Shown here piece after piece: positions 32,252 to 35,860 of a DNA stretch of 64,000 bases (its first letter is position 1; each line of letters starts with the position of its first letter). The position numbers and the translations under genes were made by a program. The notes beneath the pieces were generated by a model that made no database searches, had not been told where the DNA came from, and saw only the letters and a program-made list of their open reading frames with translations. Source of the stretch: Pseudomonadota bacterium (GTDB lineage Bacteria > Pseudomonadota > Gammaproteobacteria > Steroidobacterales > MnTg04); the NCBI GenBank assembly GCA_022572885.1, contig JACZVC010000003.1:70223-134222 (forward strand), given 5' to 3'.

Positions 32252-32498
32252 GCCTCATCCCGTTTGTCCGCAAAAACGAATAATGCATCAAGCAACTGAC
32301 CGGTACCATATTGGATCCGGTCCAGGAAGGAAACACCGATAAGCCCGATTCTATATAGTCTGCGCCCCACTAATGGTTGTGTTTACGCTAAAAACGGTAT
32401 GCTTTCCCCACTTTATTTGTTTTCTCCATTTAGTGTCTTTATTTGCTGTTTTTCGCTACTAATAACCACTTTAGTGGAAATTATTGCCAATGTTTTAC

Positions 32499-32506
32499 AT
32501 ATCAAG
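32499..32506. repeat. putative target-site duplication, left copy (ATATCAAG)
   Basis: The 8 bp directly outside IRL match the 8 bp directly outside IRR (ATACCAAG) at 7 of 8 positions. Confidence 0.6.
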
Positions 32507-32529
32507 CGGAAGTATGTACTTATTGAAAA
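32507..32529 (+). repeat. left terminal inverted repeat (IRL) CGGAAGTATGTACTTATTGAAAA
   Basis: Exact reverse complement of 35670-35692. Confidence 0.85.
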
Positions 32530-32586
32530 CGGATTTTAGCCCAAAATAGGAAGAAAACGGGCTGAAAATCGTGGGAAAGTGGGAAA

Positions 32587-32616
32587 TTGCTATAGATGAG
32601 TGGAAAATAGTATAAT
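32587..32616 (+). promoter_or_regulatory. sigma70-like promoter TTGCTA-N18-TATAAT reading into the DUF1902 gene
   Basis: TTGCTA at 32587-32592 and a perfect TATAAT at 32611-32616, about 90 nt upstream of ATG 32706. Confidence 0.5.
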
Positions 32617-32705
32617 CGGCCCACGCTTTTTGCAACATTAAAGAGTATATTATCTGTGCCGATTCATGTAGTTACGCACAGTACTTAATCTAGAGGGAAC
32701 AGGCC

Positions 32706-32975
32706 ATGCCTAACGACCAAGACTGTTTTTATATCGAGCTTACGGTGGACCCAGATAAAGACGGTATTTACGTTAGTAGTAAACAAGTTCCGGGATTGCA
32801 TTTGATGGGATCTAGCATGAATGACATGAGGCCGACGCTTGAAAAGGCCATTAAGCGCCTCTATCTCGACAACAAAGGAACAGATGTCAATGTAATCTGG
32901 TTGTCTAATGCTGAGGACTTTCCGGTAGCTCACGATGTGCCGGTACGGCTCGCTGTTTACGAAAAAGCAGCCTAG
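32706..32975 (+). CDS. DUF1902 / HicB-like small protein (possible antitoxin)
   Basis: 89 aa. The pattern FYIELTVDPDKDGIYVSSKQVPGLHLMGSSMNDMRPTLEKAI resembles the DUF1902 / HicB N-terminal fold signature (..PGL..eg.t.eE..). An SD-like GAGGGA lies upstream. Confidence 0.55.
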   Translation: MPNDQDCFYIELTVDPDKDGIYVSSKQVPGLHLMGSSMNDMRPTLEKAIKRLYLDNKGTDVNVIWLSNAEDFPVAHDVPVRLAVYEKAA

Positions 32976-33007
32976 AAGTACCATAAGGATTGCAGGGACG
33001 GTTGAAT

Positions 33008-33247
33008 ATGATTGCTGTTCGGCTGCTCTCGCGTAAGGTAGTAAAAGAAAGGCTTGATGCGTTTGGTTGCCAGCTTGTCGAGGAATATGACAACCCCTCT
33101 GATTCTTATTATCAATCGTCCTATTGGCGAACTTCCTGGGGGTTCCACTTTTTTGTTCCAGAGTTAGGCGAGAACCGATTGTGTCCAGAGCATCGGTTGT
33201 ACCAAATCCTCGCGGAGCTTTCTGAATTGGCTCCGAGGAAGGACTAG
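33008..33247 (+). CDS. hypothetical small protein, weakly HicA-like
   Basis: 79 aa from ATG 33008 (the track ORF begins at TTG 32990). The segments LSRKVVKERLDAFGCQLV, GFHFFVP and LYQILAEL loosely follow the HicA layout. Weak call. Confidence 0.4.
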   Translation: MIAVRLLSRKVVKERLDAFGCQLVEEYDNPSDSYYQSSYWRTSWGFHFFVPELGENRLCPEHRLYQILAELSELAPRKD

Positions 33248-34230
33248 AAATCTGGATTTAGTTGTTTCGGGCGAAAATTTGTCCTTGTGTCAACTGGTTC
33301 TCGATAACGCAGCCGTTTTCCATCTGCTGCCTGAATCGCTGCCACGGTTCGGTCCCCATCGCTTAGCTTGCGCCCGTTATACCGAAATTCGTATTCGGCC
33401 AGATATCGGTGCAGATGTTTCTTGCTTACCGAGTGGTAAATACCGCTTAGGCCACGTTTCACAATGGCGAAATAGCTTTCTACGGTGTTGGTAGTTACGT
33501 CGCCTCGAACATACTCGCCAGCGGAGTGCTTTACGGTATGGTGTCCACCTTCGTATTCCCGCCCGATGCCACGATATTGTTTGGCTTCGTCCGTCATAAT
33601 CTTAGCTCGGCGATCAACATTGTCACGGATGGCGATTTTCAGGGTCTTGGCTGAGACATCCGGTAGAACCATTGCCCGGACTCGGCCACCGCGCTCGACC
33701 ATGGCCATCACCGGCGTTTTATTACTCCAGGCTTCGCGCTTGTCCCGCGGGTGCCGGGGCTTGCCGCCTACATGGGTTTCGTCAATTTCGACGGTTCCGG
33801 TTAGTGGGTTGCCATCAGTTGGGGCCATGGCGAAGCGGATACGGTGCAGCAGGAACAGGGCTGATTTATAACTGAGGCCAGTCTGACGCTTGATTTCCAA
33901 TGCGCTAACCCCTTTTTTGGAGGTGGCGGCACGCCAGAACCCAAAGCACCAGTGGCGCAGAGGGATGCGAGAATCCTCGAAAACAGTGCCAGTACGGACG
34001 CTATATAACGAATTACAATCCCGACAGCGCCAGCGATAATGCTTCTCCCGACCACCTTTCCGAGACTGCATTTGGTATACGTCCATGCCGCCGCATTTGG
34101 GGCAGGCCGGATAATCGCCCCAGCGGTTCTTTTCCATGAATTCAACAGCCACAGCCTCATTCGCGCAGGCTGTTGGAAGGTCCTGAATTGGCGTGTCGCC
34201 CTTAGTCGATTGGTTCTGTATCTTGCTCAT
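33244..34230 (-). CDS. IS1595-family (ISXO2-like) transposase
   Basis: 328 aa. N-terminal zinc ribbon (CPKCGG...WRCRDC), then the ISXO2-like DDE domain (VEIDETHVGGK, IMTDEAKQY, NTVESYF, and HRYLAEYEFRYN). Confidence 0.9.
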   Translation of the reverse strand: MSKIQNQSTKGDTPIQDLPTACANEAVAVEFMEKNRWGDYPACPKCGGMDVYQMQSRKGGREKHYRWRCRDCNSLYSVRTGTVFEDSRIPLRHWCFGFWRAATSKKGVSALEIKRQTGLSYKSALFLLHRIRFAMAPTDGNPLTGTVEIDETHVGGKPRHPRDKREAWSNKTPVMAMVERGGRVRAMVLPDVSAKTLKIAIRDNVDRRAKIMTDEAKQYRGIGREYEGGHHTVKHSAGEYVRGDVTTNTVESYFAIVKRGLSGIYHSVSKKHLHRYLAEYEFRYNGRKLSDGDRTVAAIQAADGKRLRYREPVDTRTNFRPKQLNPDF

Positions 34231-34237
34231 TGGTATT

Positions 34238-34265
34238 ATTATACTTGATGAAATTATATTGTCAA
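34238..34265 (-). promoter_or_regulatory. consensus sigma70 promoter TTGACA-N16-TATAAT, 7 nt upstream of the transposase ATG (leaderless layout)
   Basis: The minus strand reads TTGACAATATAATTTCATCAAGTATAATAATACCAATG. There is no Shine-Dalgarno sequence between the -10 box and the ATG. Confidence 0.6.
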
Positions 34266-34318
34266 TGCTTGCAGAAAACTATTTGCAAGCATTGCTTGCA
34301 TCCACTATCATGCAAGCA
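34266..34318. promoter_or_regulatory. four-half-site palindromic operator-like array (TGCTTGCA / TGCAAGCA)
   Basis: Half-sites lie at 34266-73, 34284-91, 34293-300 and 34311-18, with spacings of 18/9/18 symmetric about 34292. The central 17-mer TGCAAGCATTGCTTGCA is a perfect palindrome. Confidence 0.6.
34283..34311 (+). promoter_or_regulatory. sigma70-like promoter TTGCAA-N17-TATCAT, 6 nt upstream of the P63C ATG (leaderless layout)
   Basis: TTGCAA at 34283-88, TATCAT at 34306-11, ATG at 34318. No SD sequence. Confidence 0.5.
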
Positions 34319-35337
34319 TGACCAGTTCAGATAGCCCGAAAGCAAGGGGCGGCTACGCAAGGGCCGCGTCGTTAACGTCCAAGCAACGGCGTGAAATAGC
34401 TATAAAGGCCGCTGCAAGCCGTTGGAGAGCTGATCTCCCTCAGGCTACCCACGCCGGAGAACTTAAGATAGGCGATATGACTATCCCCTGCGCGAATCTT
34501 GAAGACGGGACTCGTGTGCTTACAGAGTCCGACTTCATGAAGAACATGGGGATGTATCGCAGCGGTGCGTTGTCGGTAAGACGTAAGGTCGATGATGAAA
34601 CCGGTGCACTAGCGCCGCTTTATCTCGCTTTCAAGAACATAAAACCTTTTGTAGAGAAGCACTTAGGGAATGTGCACCAATCCTTCATCAAGTATCGGAC
34701 TGGTAAGGGGATGGTAGCCCACGGAATAAGCGCCGAGTCAATACCGAAGATTTGCGAAATCTGGCTTGATGCTAAAAAGGCCGGGGTGCTTGGTAGGCGG
34801 CAAGAAAAAATCGCCGAGAAAGCCGAATTGGTAATACGTGCTTTGGCCCACATCGGCATCATCGCTCTGGTTGATGAAGCAACTGGCTATCAGGAAATCA
34901 GGGACCGAAAAGCCCTGCAATCCATTCTGGACAAGTACCTGCGTAAGGAACTTGCAGCATGGGCCAAGAAATTCCCGGACGAGTTCTACAAAGAAATGTT
35001 TAGACTTCGCGGCTGGGAGTGGAAAGGAATGAAAGTCAATCGCCCCAGCGTAGTAGGAAAGTACACCAAGGACCTTGTCTACGAGCGCATCGCGCCAGGG
35101 CTACTCAACGAATTAGAGCGAAAAAATCCCAAGCACACAGTTGGCCGAAGAAAGGCAAAACACCATCAATGGTTAACTGAGGATGTAGGTGATCCGGCAC
35201 TAGCTCAGCATTTGTACGCTGTCATCGGACTAATGCGCGCCTCATCTGACTGGAGCCAGTTAAAGCGCCTGATGAATCGCGCATTCCCTCGTAAAGGGGA
35301 TACGCTGGACCTGCCCTTAGAGGATTTTCCGGATTGA
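34318..35337 (+). CDS. P63C domain-containing protein
   Basis: 339 aa. The N-terminal GGYARAASLTSKQRREIAIKAAASRW segment and the central/C-terminal region resemble phage P22 ORF63 C-terminal (P63C) family proteins, as I recall them. Confidence 0.75.
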   Translation: MTSSDSPKARGGYARAASLTSKQRREIAIKAAASRWRADLPQATHAGELKIGDMTIPCANLEDGTRVLTESDFMKNMGMYRSGALSVRRKVDDETGALAPLYLAFKNIKPFVEKHLGNVHQSFIKYRTGKGMVAHGISAESIPKICEIWLDAKKAGVLGRRQEKIAEKAELVIRALAHIGIIALVDEATGYQEIRDRKALQSILDKYLRKELAAWAKKFPDEFYKEMFRLRGWEWKGMKVNRPSVVGKYTKDLVYERIAPGLLNELERKNPKHTVGRRKAKHHQWLTEDVGDPALAQHLYAVIGLMRASSDWSQLKRLMNRAFPRKGDTLDLPLEDFPD

Positions 35338-35350
35338 TTTATAAAAAAAT

Positions 35351-35433
35351 GCCGGGGTGGCGAAATTGGTAAACGCTGACGACTTGGAATCGTCTGGCTT
35401 TCCGCCTTGCGGGTTCGATCCCCGTCCCCGGCA
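35351..35433 (+). tRNA. class II tRNA, Leu-type body (A73, long variable arm) with anticodon 5'-UGG-3' (Pro); no encoded CCA
   Basis: Manual cloverleaf: acceptor GCCGGGG/CCCCGGC (7 bp); TG; D-arm GCG-AAATTGGTAAA-CGC; T; anticodon stem GACGA/TCGTC with loop CTTGGAA; 14-nt variable arm TGGCTTTCCGCCTT; T-arm GCGGG-TTCGATC-CCCGT; discriminator A. Confidence 0.75.
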
Positions 35434-35450
35434 CTCTAATTATATCAAAT

Positions 35451-35624
35451 ATGACTGACAAAAGAGAGAAACGAGGCCCAAAACCAGAAACCGTCAAGAT
35501 CGACGAAGACTGGGAGGACGCTGTCAAAAAGGCGCTAGAGAAGAAACGCCCGAAAAGTGGGTGGCCTGGAACCAGCGAGGATAAAGGGTCAGAGACCGAT
35601 CCAGAGCCGACAAGCGATAAATAA
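35451..35624 (+). CDS. 57-aa highly charged hypothetical protein
   Basis: My own translation is MTDKREKRGPKPETVKIDEDWEDAVKKALEKKRPKSGWPGTSEDKGSETDPEPTSDK. There is no SD, and an AT-rich TAATTATAT lies just upstream. It is below the track cutoff. Confidence 0.35.
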   Translation: MTDKREKRGPKPETVKIDEDWEDAVKKALEKKRPKSGWPGTSEDKGSETDPEPTSDK

Positions 35625-35669
35625 TCCCACCGATCTTTTTCGCTTTTCGTAACTTATTGATTATTATAC

Positions 35670-35692
35670 TTTTCAATAAGTACATACTTCCG
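35670..35692 (-). repeat. right terminal inverted repeat (IRR)
   Basis: TTTTCAATAAGTACATACTTCCG is the exact reverse complement of IRL. Confidence 0.85.
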
Positions 35693-35700
35693 ATACCAAG
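35693..35700. repeat. putative target-site duplication, right copy (ATACCAAG)
   Basis: See the left copy at 32499-32506. Confidence 0.6.
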
Positions 35701-35860
35701 GCAATAACGGGGCGTCCCTGCCCCGGCGGCTCTCTTCCCTGACAGAGCTTTTCAACTCGCCGCAGTGCCAGTGTGAGCCGTCGCCAGACATCTGTCTGTC
35801 AGGATTCTTTGACACTGTGCGTAGGTGCATGCCCACAATATCGGCACGGAGGAACCGCCG

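What the first reader, a model, noticed from the sequence alone, without database searches (positions are those of the whole stretch)
32499..35700. 3.19-kb IS1595-family transposable unit with perfect 23-bp ends, 8-bp target duplication and five passenger genes
**Ends and duplication.** CGGAAGTATGTACTTATTGAAAA at 32507-32529 is the exact reverse complement of 35670-35692. The 8 bp immediately outside the two ends are ATATCAAG and ATACCAAG, matching at 7 of 8 positions. The IS1595 family is known for 8-bp duplications and for subgroups that carry passenger genes (the ISNwi1 and ISNha5 groups, as I recall from ISfinder).

**Content.** The only transposase between the ends is an ISXO2-like IS1595-family protein. 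Its stop codon and that of the convergent upstream ORF share the tetranucleotide CTAG (33244-33247). That leaves no room for a separate IS end there.

**Inference.** The DUF1902 gene, the 79-aa ORF, the P63C gene, the tRNA and the 57-aa ORF therefore appear to move as cargo of one unit. The segment is conspicuously AT-rich against a GC-rich background.
Basis: partly seen in the sequence, partly recalled or inferred. Interest (0 to 1): 0.6.

Follow-up and report, generated by a model that had tools for sequence, protein, structure and literature searches.

The report
Transposon carrying its own odd tRNA
This is a real, recently inserted 3.2-kb jumping gene of the IS1595 family that carries five passenger genes, one of which is a leucine-shaped tRNA with a proline anticodon that is matched, across many related elements, to one fixed codon in the element's own transposase gene.

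Summary
A perfect 23-nt inverted repeat (32507-32529 / 35670-35692) bounds a 3,186-bp unit flanked by an 8-bp duplication (7 of 8 identical). Five same-genus genomes have the empty dctP-dtd spacer. Joining the window flanks with one copy of the duplication aligns to one of them (G004) without a gap at the junction.

The ends, the IS1595-type transposase and perfect 8-bp duplications recur in over 25 related elements (0.8-4.3 kb) from five or more phyla, with varying cargo. All five passengers have homologues elsewhere. The "DUF1902" label gets no Pfam support, only a weak HicB-like fold.

The main new result concerns the tRNA.
- It is a conserved class II tRNA with the E. coli leucine identity set but anticodon UGG.
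- Every UGG-bearing element examined (19 of 19) has CCA at one conserved Pro codon of the transposase (window 34174-34176).
- One element with anticodon AGG has CCT there.
- A sister clade with UGC tRNAs fixes GCA at another site (12 of 12).
- Elements without a standard tRNA vary freely at the site.

So the cargo tRNA evidently decodes a sentinel codon of its own transposase. Which amino acid it inserts, and why, is inferred only. The scan has noted similar transposon-borne tRNAs on other DNA. No paper describing this was found.

The parts
32499..32506 (.). Left copy of the 8-bp target-site duplication (ATATCAAG)
   Evidence: Matches the right copy at 7 of 8 positions. With one copy kept, the joined flanks align to the empty site of G004 without a gap at the junction.
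32507..32529 (+). Left terminal inverted repeat (IRL), CGGAAGTATGTACTTATTGAAAA
   Evidence: The same end sequence bounds related elements in other genomes and metagenomes.
32587..32616 (+). Promoter-like site (TTGCTA-18-TATAAT) upstream of the 89-aa/79-aa gene pair
   Evidence: This is a consensus match only; function was not tested.
32706..32975 (+). 89-aa passenger ORF. It is conserved. Its predicted fold weakly resembles the HicB antitoxin N-terminal domain. It has no Pfam family.
   Evidence: Four homologues besides the window's own protein, at 49-66% identity. They are again followed by a ~79-aa gene and sit inside IS elements. AlphaFold pLDDT is 75; the top PDB matches are HicB antitoxins but weak, with E 0.04-0.4. 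No DUF1902 hit.
33008..33247 (+). 79-aa passenger ORF, partner of the 89-aa gene, with alpha-beta-beta-beta-alpha topology (like a dsRNA-binding domain, dsRBD, or HicA)
   Evidence: Homologues at 50-71% identity share invariant motifs YWRT.WGF and CPE. pLDDT is 89. PDB matches are weak dsRBD hits with E > 0.09. No invariant His, so it is not a canonical HicA.
33244..34230 (-). IS1595-family transposase, 328 aa, intact
   Evidence: PF12762 at 5.9e-40, covering 2-153 of 153 profile positions; PF12760 at 1.2e-9; NF033547 at 195 bits. It is 83% identical to the transposase of the G216 element.
34174..34176 (-). Sentinel codon CCA (Pro19 of the transposase, in the motif D-L-P-x-A-C), the Watson-Crick cognate of the cargo tRNA anticodon UGG
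   Evidence: The codon is CCA in 19 of 19 elements with a UGG tRNA and CCT in the one element with an AGG tRNA. It varies (CCG/CCC/CCT) in elements without a standard tRNA.
34238..34265 (-). Perfect sigma-70 consensus promoter (TTGACA-16-TATAAT) ending 7 nt before the transposase ATG
   Evidence: 12 of 12 matches. Function was not tested.
34282..34311 (+). Promoter-like site in front of the P63C gene, inside an imperfect palindrome (34265-34319)
   Evidence: (I2). Consensus match only.
34318..35337 (+). 339-aa passenger protein with a C-terminal P63C domain. It belongs to a phage-type family of unknown function and sits in the variable cargo slot.
   Evidence: PF10546 at 5.5e-38. Full-length match to phrog_2384 at 2e-117. 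In related elements this slot holds other genes: Gp49/HTH/DUF3467, a 249-aa ORF, NYN or PIN genes.
35351..35434 (+). Class II (long variable arm) tRNA with a leucine-type body and anticodon UGG. No CCA end is encoded.
   Evidence: In the family alignment 99.2% of cells are paired and 20 of 22 pairs show compensatory changes. A73, C2-G71, A15, U48 and G18G19 are present.
35451..35624 (+). 57-aa basic small ORF next to the right end, conserved in many family members
   Evidence: tblastn hits at 45-78% identity in related elements, usually next to an IR. No family hit.
35670..35692 (-). Right terminal inverted repeat (IRR)
35693..35700 (.). Right copy of the target-site duplication (ATACCAAG)

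Best explanation
**The element (shown).** Window 32507-35692 is one intact transposable unit, a "transporter IS" of the IS1595 family.
- Its DDE transposase recognises the two 23-bp terminal inverted repeats and moves everything between them.
- Insertion makes an 8-bp target duplication.
- The unit inserted recently into the AT-rich spacer between the TRAP binding-protein gene (dctP) and dtd.

**Architecture (shown by comparison).** It belongs to a large, cross-phylum subfamily with a conserved core.
- The core is the ends, the transposase, usually a class II tRNA and, in many members, a small basic ORF.
- A variable slot holds different cargo. Here it holds a P63C protein, and a HicB/HicA-like gene pair sits at the other end.

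**The tRNA (shown).** The tRNA is not incidental. Its anticodon co-varies with one otherwise synonymous-free codon of the transposase. I therefore conclude that it decodes that sentinel codon.

**Amino acid and purpose (inferred).**
- From its identity elements the tRNA is most likely charged with leucine.
- Part of the transposase would then carry Leu instead of the conserved Pro19, at the N-terminal edge of the zinc-ribbon domain.
- My preferred but unproven reading is that the substituted isoform modulates transposition, for example as a tRNA-dose-dependent and hence copy-number-dependent regulator.
For: **The unit and its boundaries**
- Perfect repeats, unique in the genome, and a 7-of-8 duplication.
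- Empty sites in five congeners, with a gap-free junction alignment to G004.
- IS1595 domains in the transposase.
- Of 22 distinct IR-bounded relatives, 19 have perfect 8-bp duplications. Six more elements with IR pairs came from a set chosen blind, and five of those have perfect duplications.
- The IR family forms one transposase clade with 100/99 support.
- Cargo varies between the same ends.

**The tRNA is real**
- Rfam scores 56.5 bits.
- 99.2% of cells are paired and 20 of 22 pairs show compensatory changes, against 0 of 500 shuffles.
- About 40 family members were found with the covariance model.

**Sentinel codon**
- In the UGG clade only 3 of 73 amino-acid-invariant degenerate columns are codon-invariant. 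The only four-fold degenerate one is CCA at Pro19.
- In the UGC clade the only four-fold degenerate invariant codon is GCA, at another site.
- CCA is present in 19 of 19 UGG elements, including four from the blind set.
- Anticodon AGG goes with CCT.
- At least two tRNA losses on the tree coincide with CCA changing to CCC or CCG.

**Leucine-type identity**
- A73, C2-G71, A15, U48 and G18G19 are present.
- C72 and A15:U48 stand in place of the proline determinants G72 and G15:C48.
- The UGC tRNAs have no G3.U70.
- The identity rules are taken from PMC9976931.
Against: **The unit**
- Only one copy exists in this genome, so transposition here is inferred from relatives, not observed.
- The duplication has one mismatch.

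**The tRNA reading**
- No expression or aminoacylation data could be obtained.
- Pro19 and the sentinel Ala are conserved residues, also in tRNA-less relatives that look active (perfect duplications). Leu there might simply damage the protein.
- The anticodon bases G35 and G36, and A73, are proline determinants, so some charging by ProRS cannot be excluded.
- The host already has a normal tRNA-Pro(UGG).
- The single UUA-anticodon element shows no matching in-frame TAA.
- The sequences are related, so the counts are not fully independent, although flanking synonymous sites are scrambled.
Confidence: 0.85

Rival explanations
1. The 23-bp repeats are not the ends of one element. In this reading the real IS is the transposase gene with closer ends, sitting inside a larger non-mobile or otherwise acquired island. 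Alternatively, two solo ends happen to bracket unrelated genes.
For: In the G039 relative one end lies only 40 bp from the transposase stop. Minimal family members of 1.9-2.0 kb exist.
Against: - No internal end-like sequences occur beyond chance.
- The insertion boundary against empty sites equals the outer repeats plus 8 bp.
- Relatives with different cargo have perfect 8-bp duplications immediately outside the same outer repeats.
- Homologues of the 89/79-aa pair lie inside another element of this family, L157.
Confidence: 0.03
2. The cargo tRNA is a functional proline (or, in the sister clade, alanine) decoder. It would be charged with the amino acid its anticodon specifies. The element would carry it as a private supply for codons that are rare in G+C-rich hosts, and the sentinel codon would tie transposase synthesis to that supply.
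For: - The sentinel residues Pro and Ala are conserved, so the cognate amino acid would preserve function.
- G35, G36 and A73 are bacterial proline determinants.
- CCA is only 13% of host Pro codons but 6 of 14 in the transposase and 13 of 44 across the unit, p = 0.003.
Against: - The body is class II with A15:U48 and C72, where tRNA-Pro needs G15:C48 and G72.
- The UGC tRNAs lack G3.U70, the alanine determinant, yet share the same body.
- The host has its own tRNA-Pro(UGG), so a single codon should not need a private decoder.
Confidence: 0.25
3. The tRNA-like gene has no decoding role. It might serve as an RNA processing site between passenger genes, a regulatory RNA or a decoy for tRNA-targeting toxins. 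The fixed codon would then be a coincidence or a DNA/RNA-level signal.
For: - The tRNA is packed between the P63C gene and the small ORF, 13 and 16 nt away.
- Toxin-antitoxin-like cargo is common in these elements.
- Mukai et al. suggested non-translational roles for some irregular tRNAs.
Against: - The anticodon is restricted to a few sequences and co-varies with the sentinel codon: UGG with CCA, AGG with CCT, and UGC with GCA at a different site.
- The full cloverleaf, the T-loop and the discriminator base are conserved.
- No extended complementarity exists beyond the three bases.
Confidence: 0.1

Closest known systems
IS1595-family insertion sequences with passenger genes ("transporter IS", e.g. 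ISNha5; Siguier, Gagnevin and Chandler 2009, as cited in PMC11891212 and PMC8101967)
   Same: - A single transposase with an N-terminal IS1595 zinc ribbon and a DDE_Tnp_IS1595 domain.
- Terminal inverted repeats and 8-bp target duplications.
- Passenger genes between the ends.
   Different: - The described passengers are, for example, transcription regulators.
- Here the recurring passenger is a class II tRNA matched to a codon of the transposase.
- Subgroup membership could not be checked without ISfinder. From memory only, ISNha5 ends read CGGnnTT, against CGGAAGT here.
Allo-tRNAs and irregular tRNA polycistrons of soil bacteria (Mukai et al. 2017, PMC5389517; review PMC7609411)
   Same: - Bacterial tRNAs whose anticodon does not fit their body.
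- Found in Acidobacteria and other soil bacteria, often next to toxin-antitoxin genes or a "transposon-related protein".
- Possible missense or nonsense suppressors.
   Different: - Allo-tRNAs have 8/4 or 9/3 acceptor/T-stem geometry and serine identity.
- These tRNAs are standard 7/5 with leucine-type elements.
- Those papers, as read here, report neither carriage by a defined IS family nor a matched transposase codon.
Nematode nev-tRNAs (Hamashima et al. 2012, PMC3333845)
   Same: - Class II tRNAs derived from tRNA-Leu, with anticodons for other amino acids.
- Shown there to be charged only with leucine and to decode GGG as leucine in vitro.
   Different: They are eukaryotic and chromosomal. 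They are not cargo of a transposon and have no known dedicated target codon.
HicAB toxin-antitoxin modules
   Same: - The 89-aa model resembles HicB N-terminal domains.
- The 79-aa model has the alpha-beta3-alpha topology of HicA and dsRNA-binding domains.
- It is a two-gene cassette that travels on mobile elements.
   Different: - No sequence-family hit was found, and all fold matches are non-significant.
- The 79-aa family has no invariant catalytic His.
- The gene order is antitoxin-like first.

Membership tests
IS1595 family of insertion sequences | Transposase with a DDE_Tnp_IS1595 catalytic domain | tested here: met
   PF12762 at 5.9e-40, covering 2-153 of 153 profile positions. NF033547 scores 195.4 bits against a cut-off of 75.
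IS1595 family of insertion sequences | N-terminal IS1595-type zinc ribbon (present in all groups except IS1016; PMC8101967) | tested here: met
   PF12760 at 1.2e-9, residues 24-73. Definition taken.
IS1595 family of insertion sequences | 8-bp target-site duplication | tested here: met
   7 of 8 identical in the window. Perfect 8 bp in 19 of 22 relatives and in further elements.
IS1595 family of insertion sequences | Terminal inverted repeats at the insertion boundaries, and a single transposase gene | tested here: met
ISNha5 or ISNwi1 subgroup (ISfinder) | Subgroup-specific end sequence and transposase clade | not testable with these tools
   No ISfinder copy or named reference sequences are available. 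The resemblance of the CGG... end to ISNha5 is from memory only.
Transporter IS (IS with passenger genes) | Non-transposition genes lie between the ends and move with them | tested here: met
   Empty site versus filled site. Relatives have the same ends and different cargo, each with its own duplication.
Bacterial tRNA-Leu identity (E. coli rules, PMC9976931) | A73 discriminator | tested here: met
   Invariant in the 12-sequence alignment.
Bacterial tRNA-Leu identity (E. coli rules, PMC9976931) | A15-U48 tertiary pair and G18G19 placement in the D loop. The anticodon is not required. | tested here: met
   A15, G18, G19 and the U before the T stem are invariant. The D arm is nearly identical to that of the host tRNA-Leu(UAA). 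Rules.
Bacterial tRNA-Leu identity (E. coli rules, PMC9976931) | Actual charging with leucine by LeuRS | not testable with these tools
   Needs an aminoacylation assay or mass spectrometry.
Bacterial tRNA-Pro identity | G72 and G15:C48 in addition to G35, G36 and A73 | tested here: not met
   The tRNA has C72 (a G1-C72 pair) and A15:U48. G35, G36 and A73 are present.
Bacterial tRNA-Ala identity (for the UGC sister tRNAs) | G3.U70 pair | tested here: not met
   All UGC members have C3-G70.
Allo-tRNA (Mukai et al. 2017) | 12-bp acceptor branch in 8/4 or 9/3 configuration, with serine identity | tested here: not met
   A standard 7-bp acceptor and 5-bp T stem fit with 100% pairing. C2-G71 and A73 argue against serine identity.
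DUF1902 / HicB N-terminal domain (89-aa ORF) | Match to the Pfam family | tested here: not met
   No hit at E <= 10. Only weak fold resemblance to HicB structures, E 0.04-0.4 and TM 0.44-0.50.
HicA toxin (79-aa ORF) | dsRBD-like fold with a conserved catalytic His | tested here: inconclusive
   The topology fits and the model is confident at pLDDT 89. PDB matches have E > 0.09, and no His is invariant.

The most novel reading that the evidence does not exclude
A widespread IS1595 subfamily carries a leucine-accepting tRNA whose anticodon is tuned to a single sentinel codon in its own transposase gene.
- The pairings seen are CCA, CCT or GCA, according to the anticodon.
- The element would then deliberately mistranslate one conserved Pro or Ala as Leu.
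- This would yield a second transposase isoform whose share scales with the dose of the element's tRNA. That would be a translational, copy-number-sensing control of transposition.
- As a side effect, mobile DNA would spread code-bending tRNAs among at least five bacterial phyla.
Probability: 0.35. Interest if true: 0.9.

Novelty: new variant of a known kind. Interest (0 to 1): 0.68.

Why it matters
**The element itself.** As an insertion sequence with passengers, this is a clean but ordinary new member of a known class. It is useful for annotation because the family is very large. A relative's transposase (from the UUA-tRNA element L069) finds 4,386 homologues at E <= 1e-60, and those that carry a name are labelled only "IS1595 family transposase" or "transposase-like protein".

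**The tRNA.** The unusual part is a mobile element that carries a tRNA with mismatched body and anticodon and keeps the exactly matching codon at one place in its own transposase.
- If the tRNA inserts leucine, this would be a natural bacterial case of programmed missense decoding serving a selfish element.
- It would also be a route by which mistranslating tRNAs spread horizontally.
- It would be a new kind of transposition control.
- It offers a compact, testable system of one tRNA, one codon and one enzyme for asking how cells and mobile elements tolerate and use ambiguous decoding.

Tried and rejected
1. **Wholesale recoding of the transposase.** I looked for Pro or Ala codons at conserved Leu positions in elements with UGG or UGC tRNAs. 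No such column exists.
2. **Self-protection by codon avoidance.** The opposite is seen. CCA is enriched in transposases of UGG elements, at 37% against 20%.
3. **A fixed matching codon in the small ORF.** Its Pro codons vary.
4. **Extended pairing between the anticodon loop and the mRNA around the sentinel.** Six bases pair in the window by chance, but this is not conserved.
5. **A frameshift site at the sentinel.** Inspection of the aligned codons shows that the neighbouring codons vary freely, so there is no conserved slippery sequence.
6. **A stop codon read by the single UUA tRNA (L069).** Read-through of TAA only adds a low-complexity tail in another frame than the small ORF. This is unresolved with n = 1.
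7. **Inner ends around the transposase.** None beyond chance.
8. **Additional copies in the genome.** None.
9. **Pfam, NCBIfam and PHROGs names for the 89-aa, 79-aa and 57-aa ORFs.** None significant.
10. **Literature on IS1595 elements carrying tRNAs.** Seven searches found nothing specific.
12. **Plasmid records.** The best transposase match is only 42% identical, so there is no named close relative.

Full report
**1. The observation**

- CGGAAGTATGTACTTATTGAAAA at 32507-32529 is the perfect reverse complement of 35670-35692.
- With up to three mismatches allowed, these are the only two matches in the window. Shuffled sequence gives none. They are also the only two in the 2.76-Mb, 66-contig genome.
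- The 8 bp outside the ends are ATATCAAG and ATACCAAG.
- Between the ends lie, in order:
  - an 89-aa ORF and a 79-aa ORF on the + strand;
  - a 328-aa transposase on the - strand, whose stop overlaps that of the 79-aa ORF in CTAG;
  - a 339-aa P63C-domain protein;
  - an 84-nt tRNA;
  - a 57-aa ORF.
- The transposase has the IS1595 zinc ribbon and DDE domains. It passes NCBI's IS1595 model at 195 bits against a cut-off of 75.

Two details need correction.
- The 89-aa ORF gives no DUF1902 hit even at E <= 10.
- The unit is only moderately AT-rich, at 49.6% G+C against 56.9% for the genome. The lowest-G+C stretch, left of the element, is native intergenic DNA that is also present in relatives.

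**2. It is an insertion, bounded by the repeats**

- Five genomes of the same genus carry dctP and dtd about 190 bp apart with nothing between them.
- I joined the window's left flank (with one copy of the 8 bp) to the right flank. The result aligns with G004 across the junction with no gap there, at 78.5% identity over 247 columns.
- The element is single-copy here.
- No end-like sequence occurs inside it beyond chance.

**3. It belongs to a large family with the same ends**

*Closest relatives in the same order.* A transposase search in 300 genomes of the order found three close relatives at 72-83% identity. Each has the same end sequence.
- G216 has a 3,284-bp element with a perfect duplication TAAATAAT.
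- G039 has a ~2.4-kb element split over two contigs. Its two outer flanks are CTTTTTTT and its reverse complement.
- In G219 the right end abuts dtd.

*Wider scans.* Scanning public genomes and metagenomes for the end pattern gave 39 and 74 loci. They come from Acidobacteriota, Planctomycetota, Gammaproteobacteria, Bacteroidota and Gemmatimonadota.
- Among 22 distinct elements with both ends on one contig (819-4,348 bp), 19 have perfect 8-bp duplications and 3 have 7 of 8.
- Their transposases form one clade (100/99 support) apart from the other IS1595 transposases of the order.
- A relative's transposase (from L069) finds 4,386 homologues at E <= 1e-60 in the large protein collection.

*Cargo varies.* Examples are Gp49-type toxin plus HTH antitoxin plus DUF3467, a 249-aa ORF, GAF, NYN and PIN proteins.

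*The window's 89/79-aa pair recurs elsewhere.*
- It occurs in another family member, L157, which is 4,371 bp with the duplication AGTTTCTA.
- It also lies next to a different, IS1-like transposase.

The passengers are therefore real genes and real cargo. In current terminology this is a transporter IS of the IS1595 family.

**4. The small cargo genes**

- The 89-aa model (pLDDT 75) has HicB antitoxins as its best PDB matches, but weakly, at E 0.04-0.4.
- The 79-aa model (pLDDT 89) is alpha-beta-beta-beta-alpha and weakly matches dsRNA-binding domains, the fold of HicA. No histidine is invariant in its family.
- A HicAB-like cassette is possible but not shown.
- The P63C protein matches a phage protein family of unknown function over its full length.

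**5. The tRNA is the conserved and odd passenger**

*Sequence features.*
- The gene has a long variable arm.
- Its acceptor stem starts GCC, as in tRNA-Leu.
- Its D arm is almost identical to that of the host tRNA-Leu(UAA).
- Its discriminator is A73 and its anticodon is UGG.
- The host has ordinary 77-nt tRNA-Pro genes with UGG, CGG and GGG anticodons.

*Conservation.*
- The three close relatives carry homologous tRNAs with the same anticodon but many changed stem pairs.
- In an alignment of 12 such tRNAs the standard cloverleaf is 99.2% paired. Compensatory changes occur in 20 of 22 pairs, and no shuffle or slid structure comes near this.
- A covariance model finds about 40 members in the IR-bearing loci.
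- Their anticodons are UGG or UGC, with one UUA and one AGG.

*Identity rules.* The rules come from the review by Giege and Eriani.
- These tRNAs have the E. coli leucine set: A73, A15-U48, the G18G19 placement, and the C2-G71 antideterminant against SerRS.
- They lack the proline determinants G72 and G15:C48.
- The UGC members lack the alanine determinant G3.U70.
- They are not allo-tRNAs, because their geometry is the standard 7/5.

Leucine acceptance is therefore the most likely outcome. It remains an inference.

**6. A sentinel codon in the transposase**

I tested two ideas and both failed.
- The element's genes are not recoded. There is no Pro or Ala at conserved Leu positions.
- They do not avoid the tRNA's codons. 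CCA is enriched.

Looking column by column gave a sharper result.
- In the clade with UGG tRNAs, only 3 of 73 amino-acid-invariant degenerate columns keep one codon. The only four-fold degenerate one is CCA, at the Pro of the N-terminal motif D-L-P-x-A-C.
- In the clade with UGC tRNAs, the only four-fold degenerate invariant codon is GCA, at the Ala of W-K-A-C-S-S-K-K-G.
- Neighbouring synonymous sites vary freely.
- Across all loci, every element with a UGG tRNA has CCA there.
- Complete elements without a tRNA (L058, L059, L074, L056) and the UUA element have CCC or CCG.
- On the transposase tree the tRNA-less elements are nested among UGG-bearing ones. At least two losses of the tRNA therefore coincide with release of the codon.

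| Loci | tRNA | Sentinel codon |
|---|---|---|
| L158, L163/L165, L169 | UGG | CCA |
| L161 | AGG | CCT (no CCA anywhere in its transposase) |
| L160 | none | CCG |
| L166 | 32-nt insert in the anticodon arm | CCG |

Totals:
- UGG: 19 of 19 have CCA.
- AGG: 1 of 1 has CCT.
- UGC: 12 of 12 have GCA.
- No standard tRNA, UUA, or tRNA status unknown (truncated contigs L073, L088): 9 elements with mixed codons.

In the window the sentinel is at 34174-34176 (minus strand CCA, Pro19).

I found this pattern before reading the scan's earlier notes. Those notes report comparable fixed codons in other transposon families.

**7. How it most likely works**

*Shown.*
- The unit is a transposable element with defined ends.
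- The tRNA is a conserved, structurally sound passenger.
- Its anticodon co-varies with one transposase codon.

*Inferred: the tRNA decodes that codon.* Selection keeps the Watson-Crick cognate codon. In a G+C-rich host that codon is rare: CCA is 13% of Pro codons. The only competitor there is the host tRNA-Pro(UGG).

*Further inferred: the tRNA brings leucine.*
- Some transposase molecules would then carry Leu in place of a Pro (or Ala) in the N-terminal part of the protein.
- The Pro sits just before the zinc-ribbon domain. That this region binds DNA is my assumption; it was not tested.
- Tested tRNA-less relatives keep Pro or Ala there and look active, so the encoded form is probably the active enzyme.
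- The substituted form may then be a modulator whose share depends on tRNA dose. That would amount to a copy-number sensor.

*Weaknesses of that last step.*
- It is a hypothesis.
- It does not explain why losing such a brake would not be favoured.
- The rival in which the tRNA supplies the cognate amino acid remains open for the UGG class.

**8. Comparison with what is known**

- The element meets every testable defining feature of the IS1595 family and of a transporter IS. The ISfinder subgroup could not be tested.
- The tRNA works like the nematode nev-tRNAs, which are tRNA-Leu derivatives shown to put leucine at Gly codons.
- It recalls the allo-tRNAs that Mukai et al. found near toxin-antitoxin genes and a transposon-related gene. 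It fails the structural definition of allo-tRNAs.
- Seven literature searches found no description of IS1595 elements carrying such tRNAs, or of a matched transposase codon. The library is incomplete, so this is not proof of novelty.

**9. Target site**

- The window element, G216 (in opposite orientation), G219, and the metagenome loci L110, L080, L101 and L071 all lie in the dctP-dtd spacer or 45-290 bp upstream of dtd.
- The duplicated octamers differ between them.
- Duplicated octamers across the family are AT-rich.
- A preference for AT-rich promoter DNA in G+C-rich genomes may explain much of this. The recurrence upstream of a tRNA-proofreading gene is noted but unexplained.

**10. Verdict**

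- The element as such is a new member of a known kind.
- The tRNA-sentinel codon pairing makes it a new variant, with a testable and possibly new mode of transposase control.

Noticed in passing
window 32252-32506 and 35693-35860; L036 4156-4335; L037 3264-3307; L110, L080, L101, L071: Related elements have inserted repeatedly, in both orientations and with different 8-bp duplications, into the dctP-dtd spacer or within 45-290 bp upstream of dtd. Seven loci from different hosts show this. dtd encodes a tRNA-proofreading enzyme (D-aminoacyl-tRNA deacylase). Whether this reflects AT-rich target choice, a permissive site or a functional link is unknown.
   Followed up: partly
L161 2239-2338 and 1261-2229: One family member has a 100-nt class II tRNA with anticodon AGG. 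Its transposase has CCT at the sentinel Pro and no CCA codon at all. This is a compensatory change of anticodon and codon.
   Followed up: yes
L069 6097-6181 and 6023-6093: A Phycisphaera element carries the same tRNA type with anticodon UUA, which would read the ochre stop. A second, weaker tRNA-like gene lies next to it. No in-frame TAA that it might read was found.
   Followed up: partly
L166 6605-6715: A marine family member has a tRNA-like gene with an intact acceptor stem, D arm and T arm but a 32-nt insertion in place of the anticodon loop. Its transposase has CCG at the sentinel.
   Followed up: no
L153-L156 (e.g. L154 470-2019): Homologues of the window's 89-aa/79-aa gene pair lie next to a different, IS1-like 274-aa transposase. 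An odd 74-78-nt tRNA, called Ser(ACU) by ARAGORN, sits there too. The cassette and the odd tRNAs thus travel on more than one IS type.
   Followed up: partly
L036 4717-4791: The G216 element has a second, 75-nt tRNA-like gene (ARAGORN Ala-UGC; only 23.7 bits with the class II model) between its left end and the transposase.
   Followed up: no
L109 756-2515 (= L142 4772-6531); L139 2078-2896; L090 77-951: Non-autonomous derivatives exist. One is a 1,760-bp element with the UGG tRNA but no transposase. Two deletion derivatives are 819 bp (perfect 8-bp duplication) and 875 bp (7 of 8 identical).
   Followed up: partly
L146 5032-5625: Directly outside one element lies a tight array of seven tRNA genes for Leu, Ser and Tyr anticodons. 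Several are unusually short for those types.
   Followed up: no
window 34228-34320: Divergent promoters for the transposase (a perfect TTGACA-16-TATAAT ending 7 nt before the ATG) and for the P63C gene overlap an imperfect 27-nt palindrome. Both mRNAs may be leaderless. This is the subject of another note of this scan.
   Followed up: partly
window 35708-35727: A G+C-rich hairpin (CGGGGCGTCCCTGCCCCG) just right of the insertion, upstream of dtd, is conserved in all five same-genus genomes.
   Followed up: no
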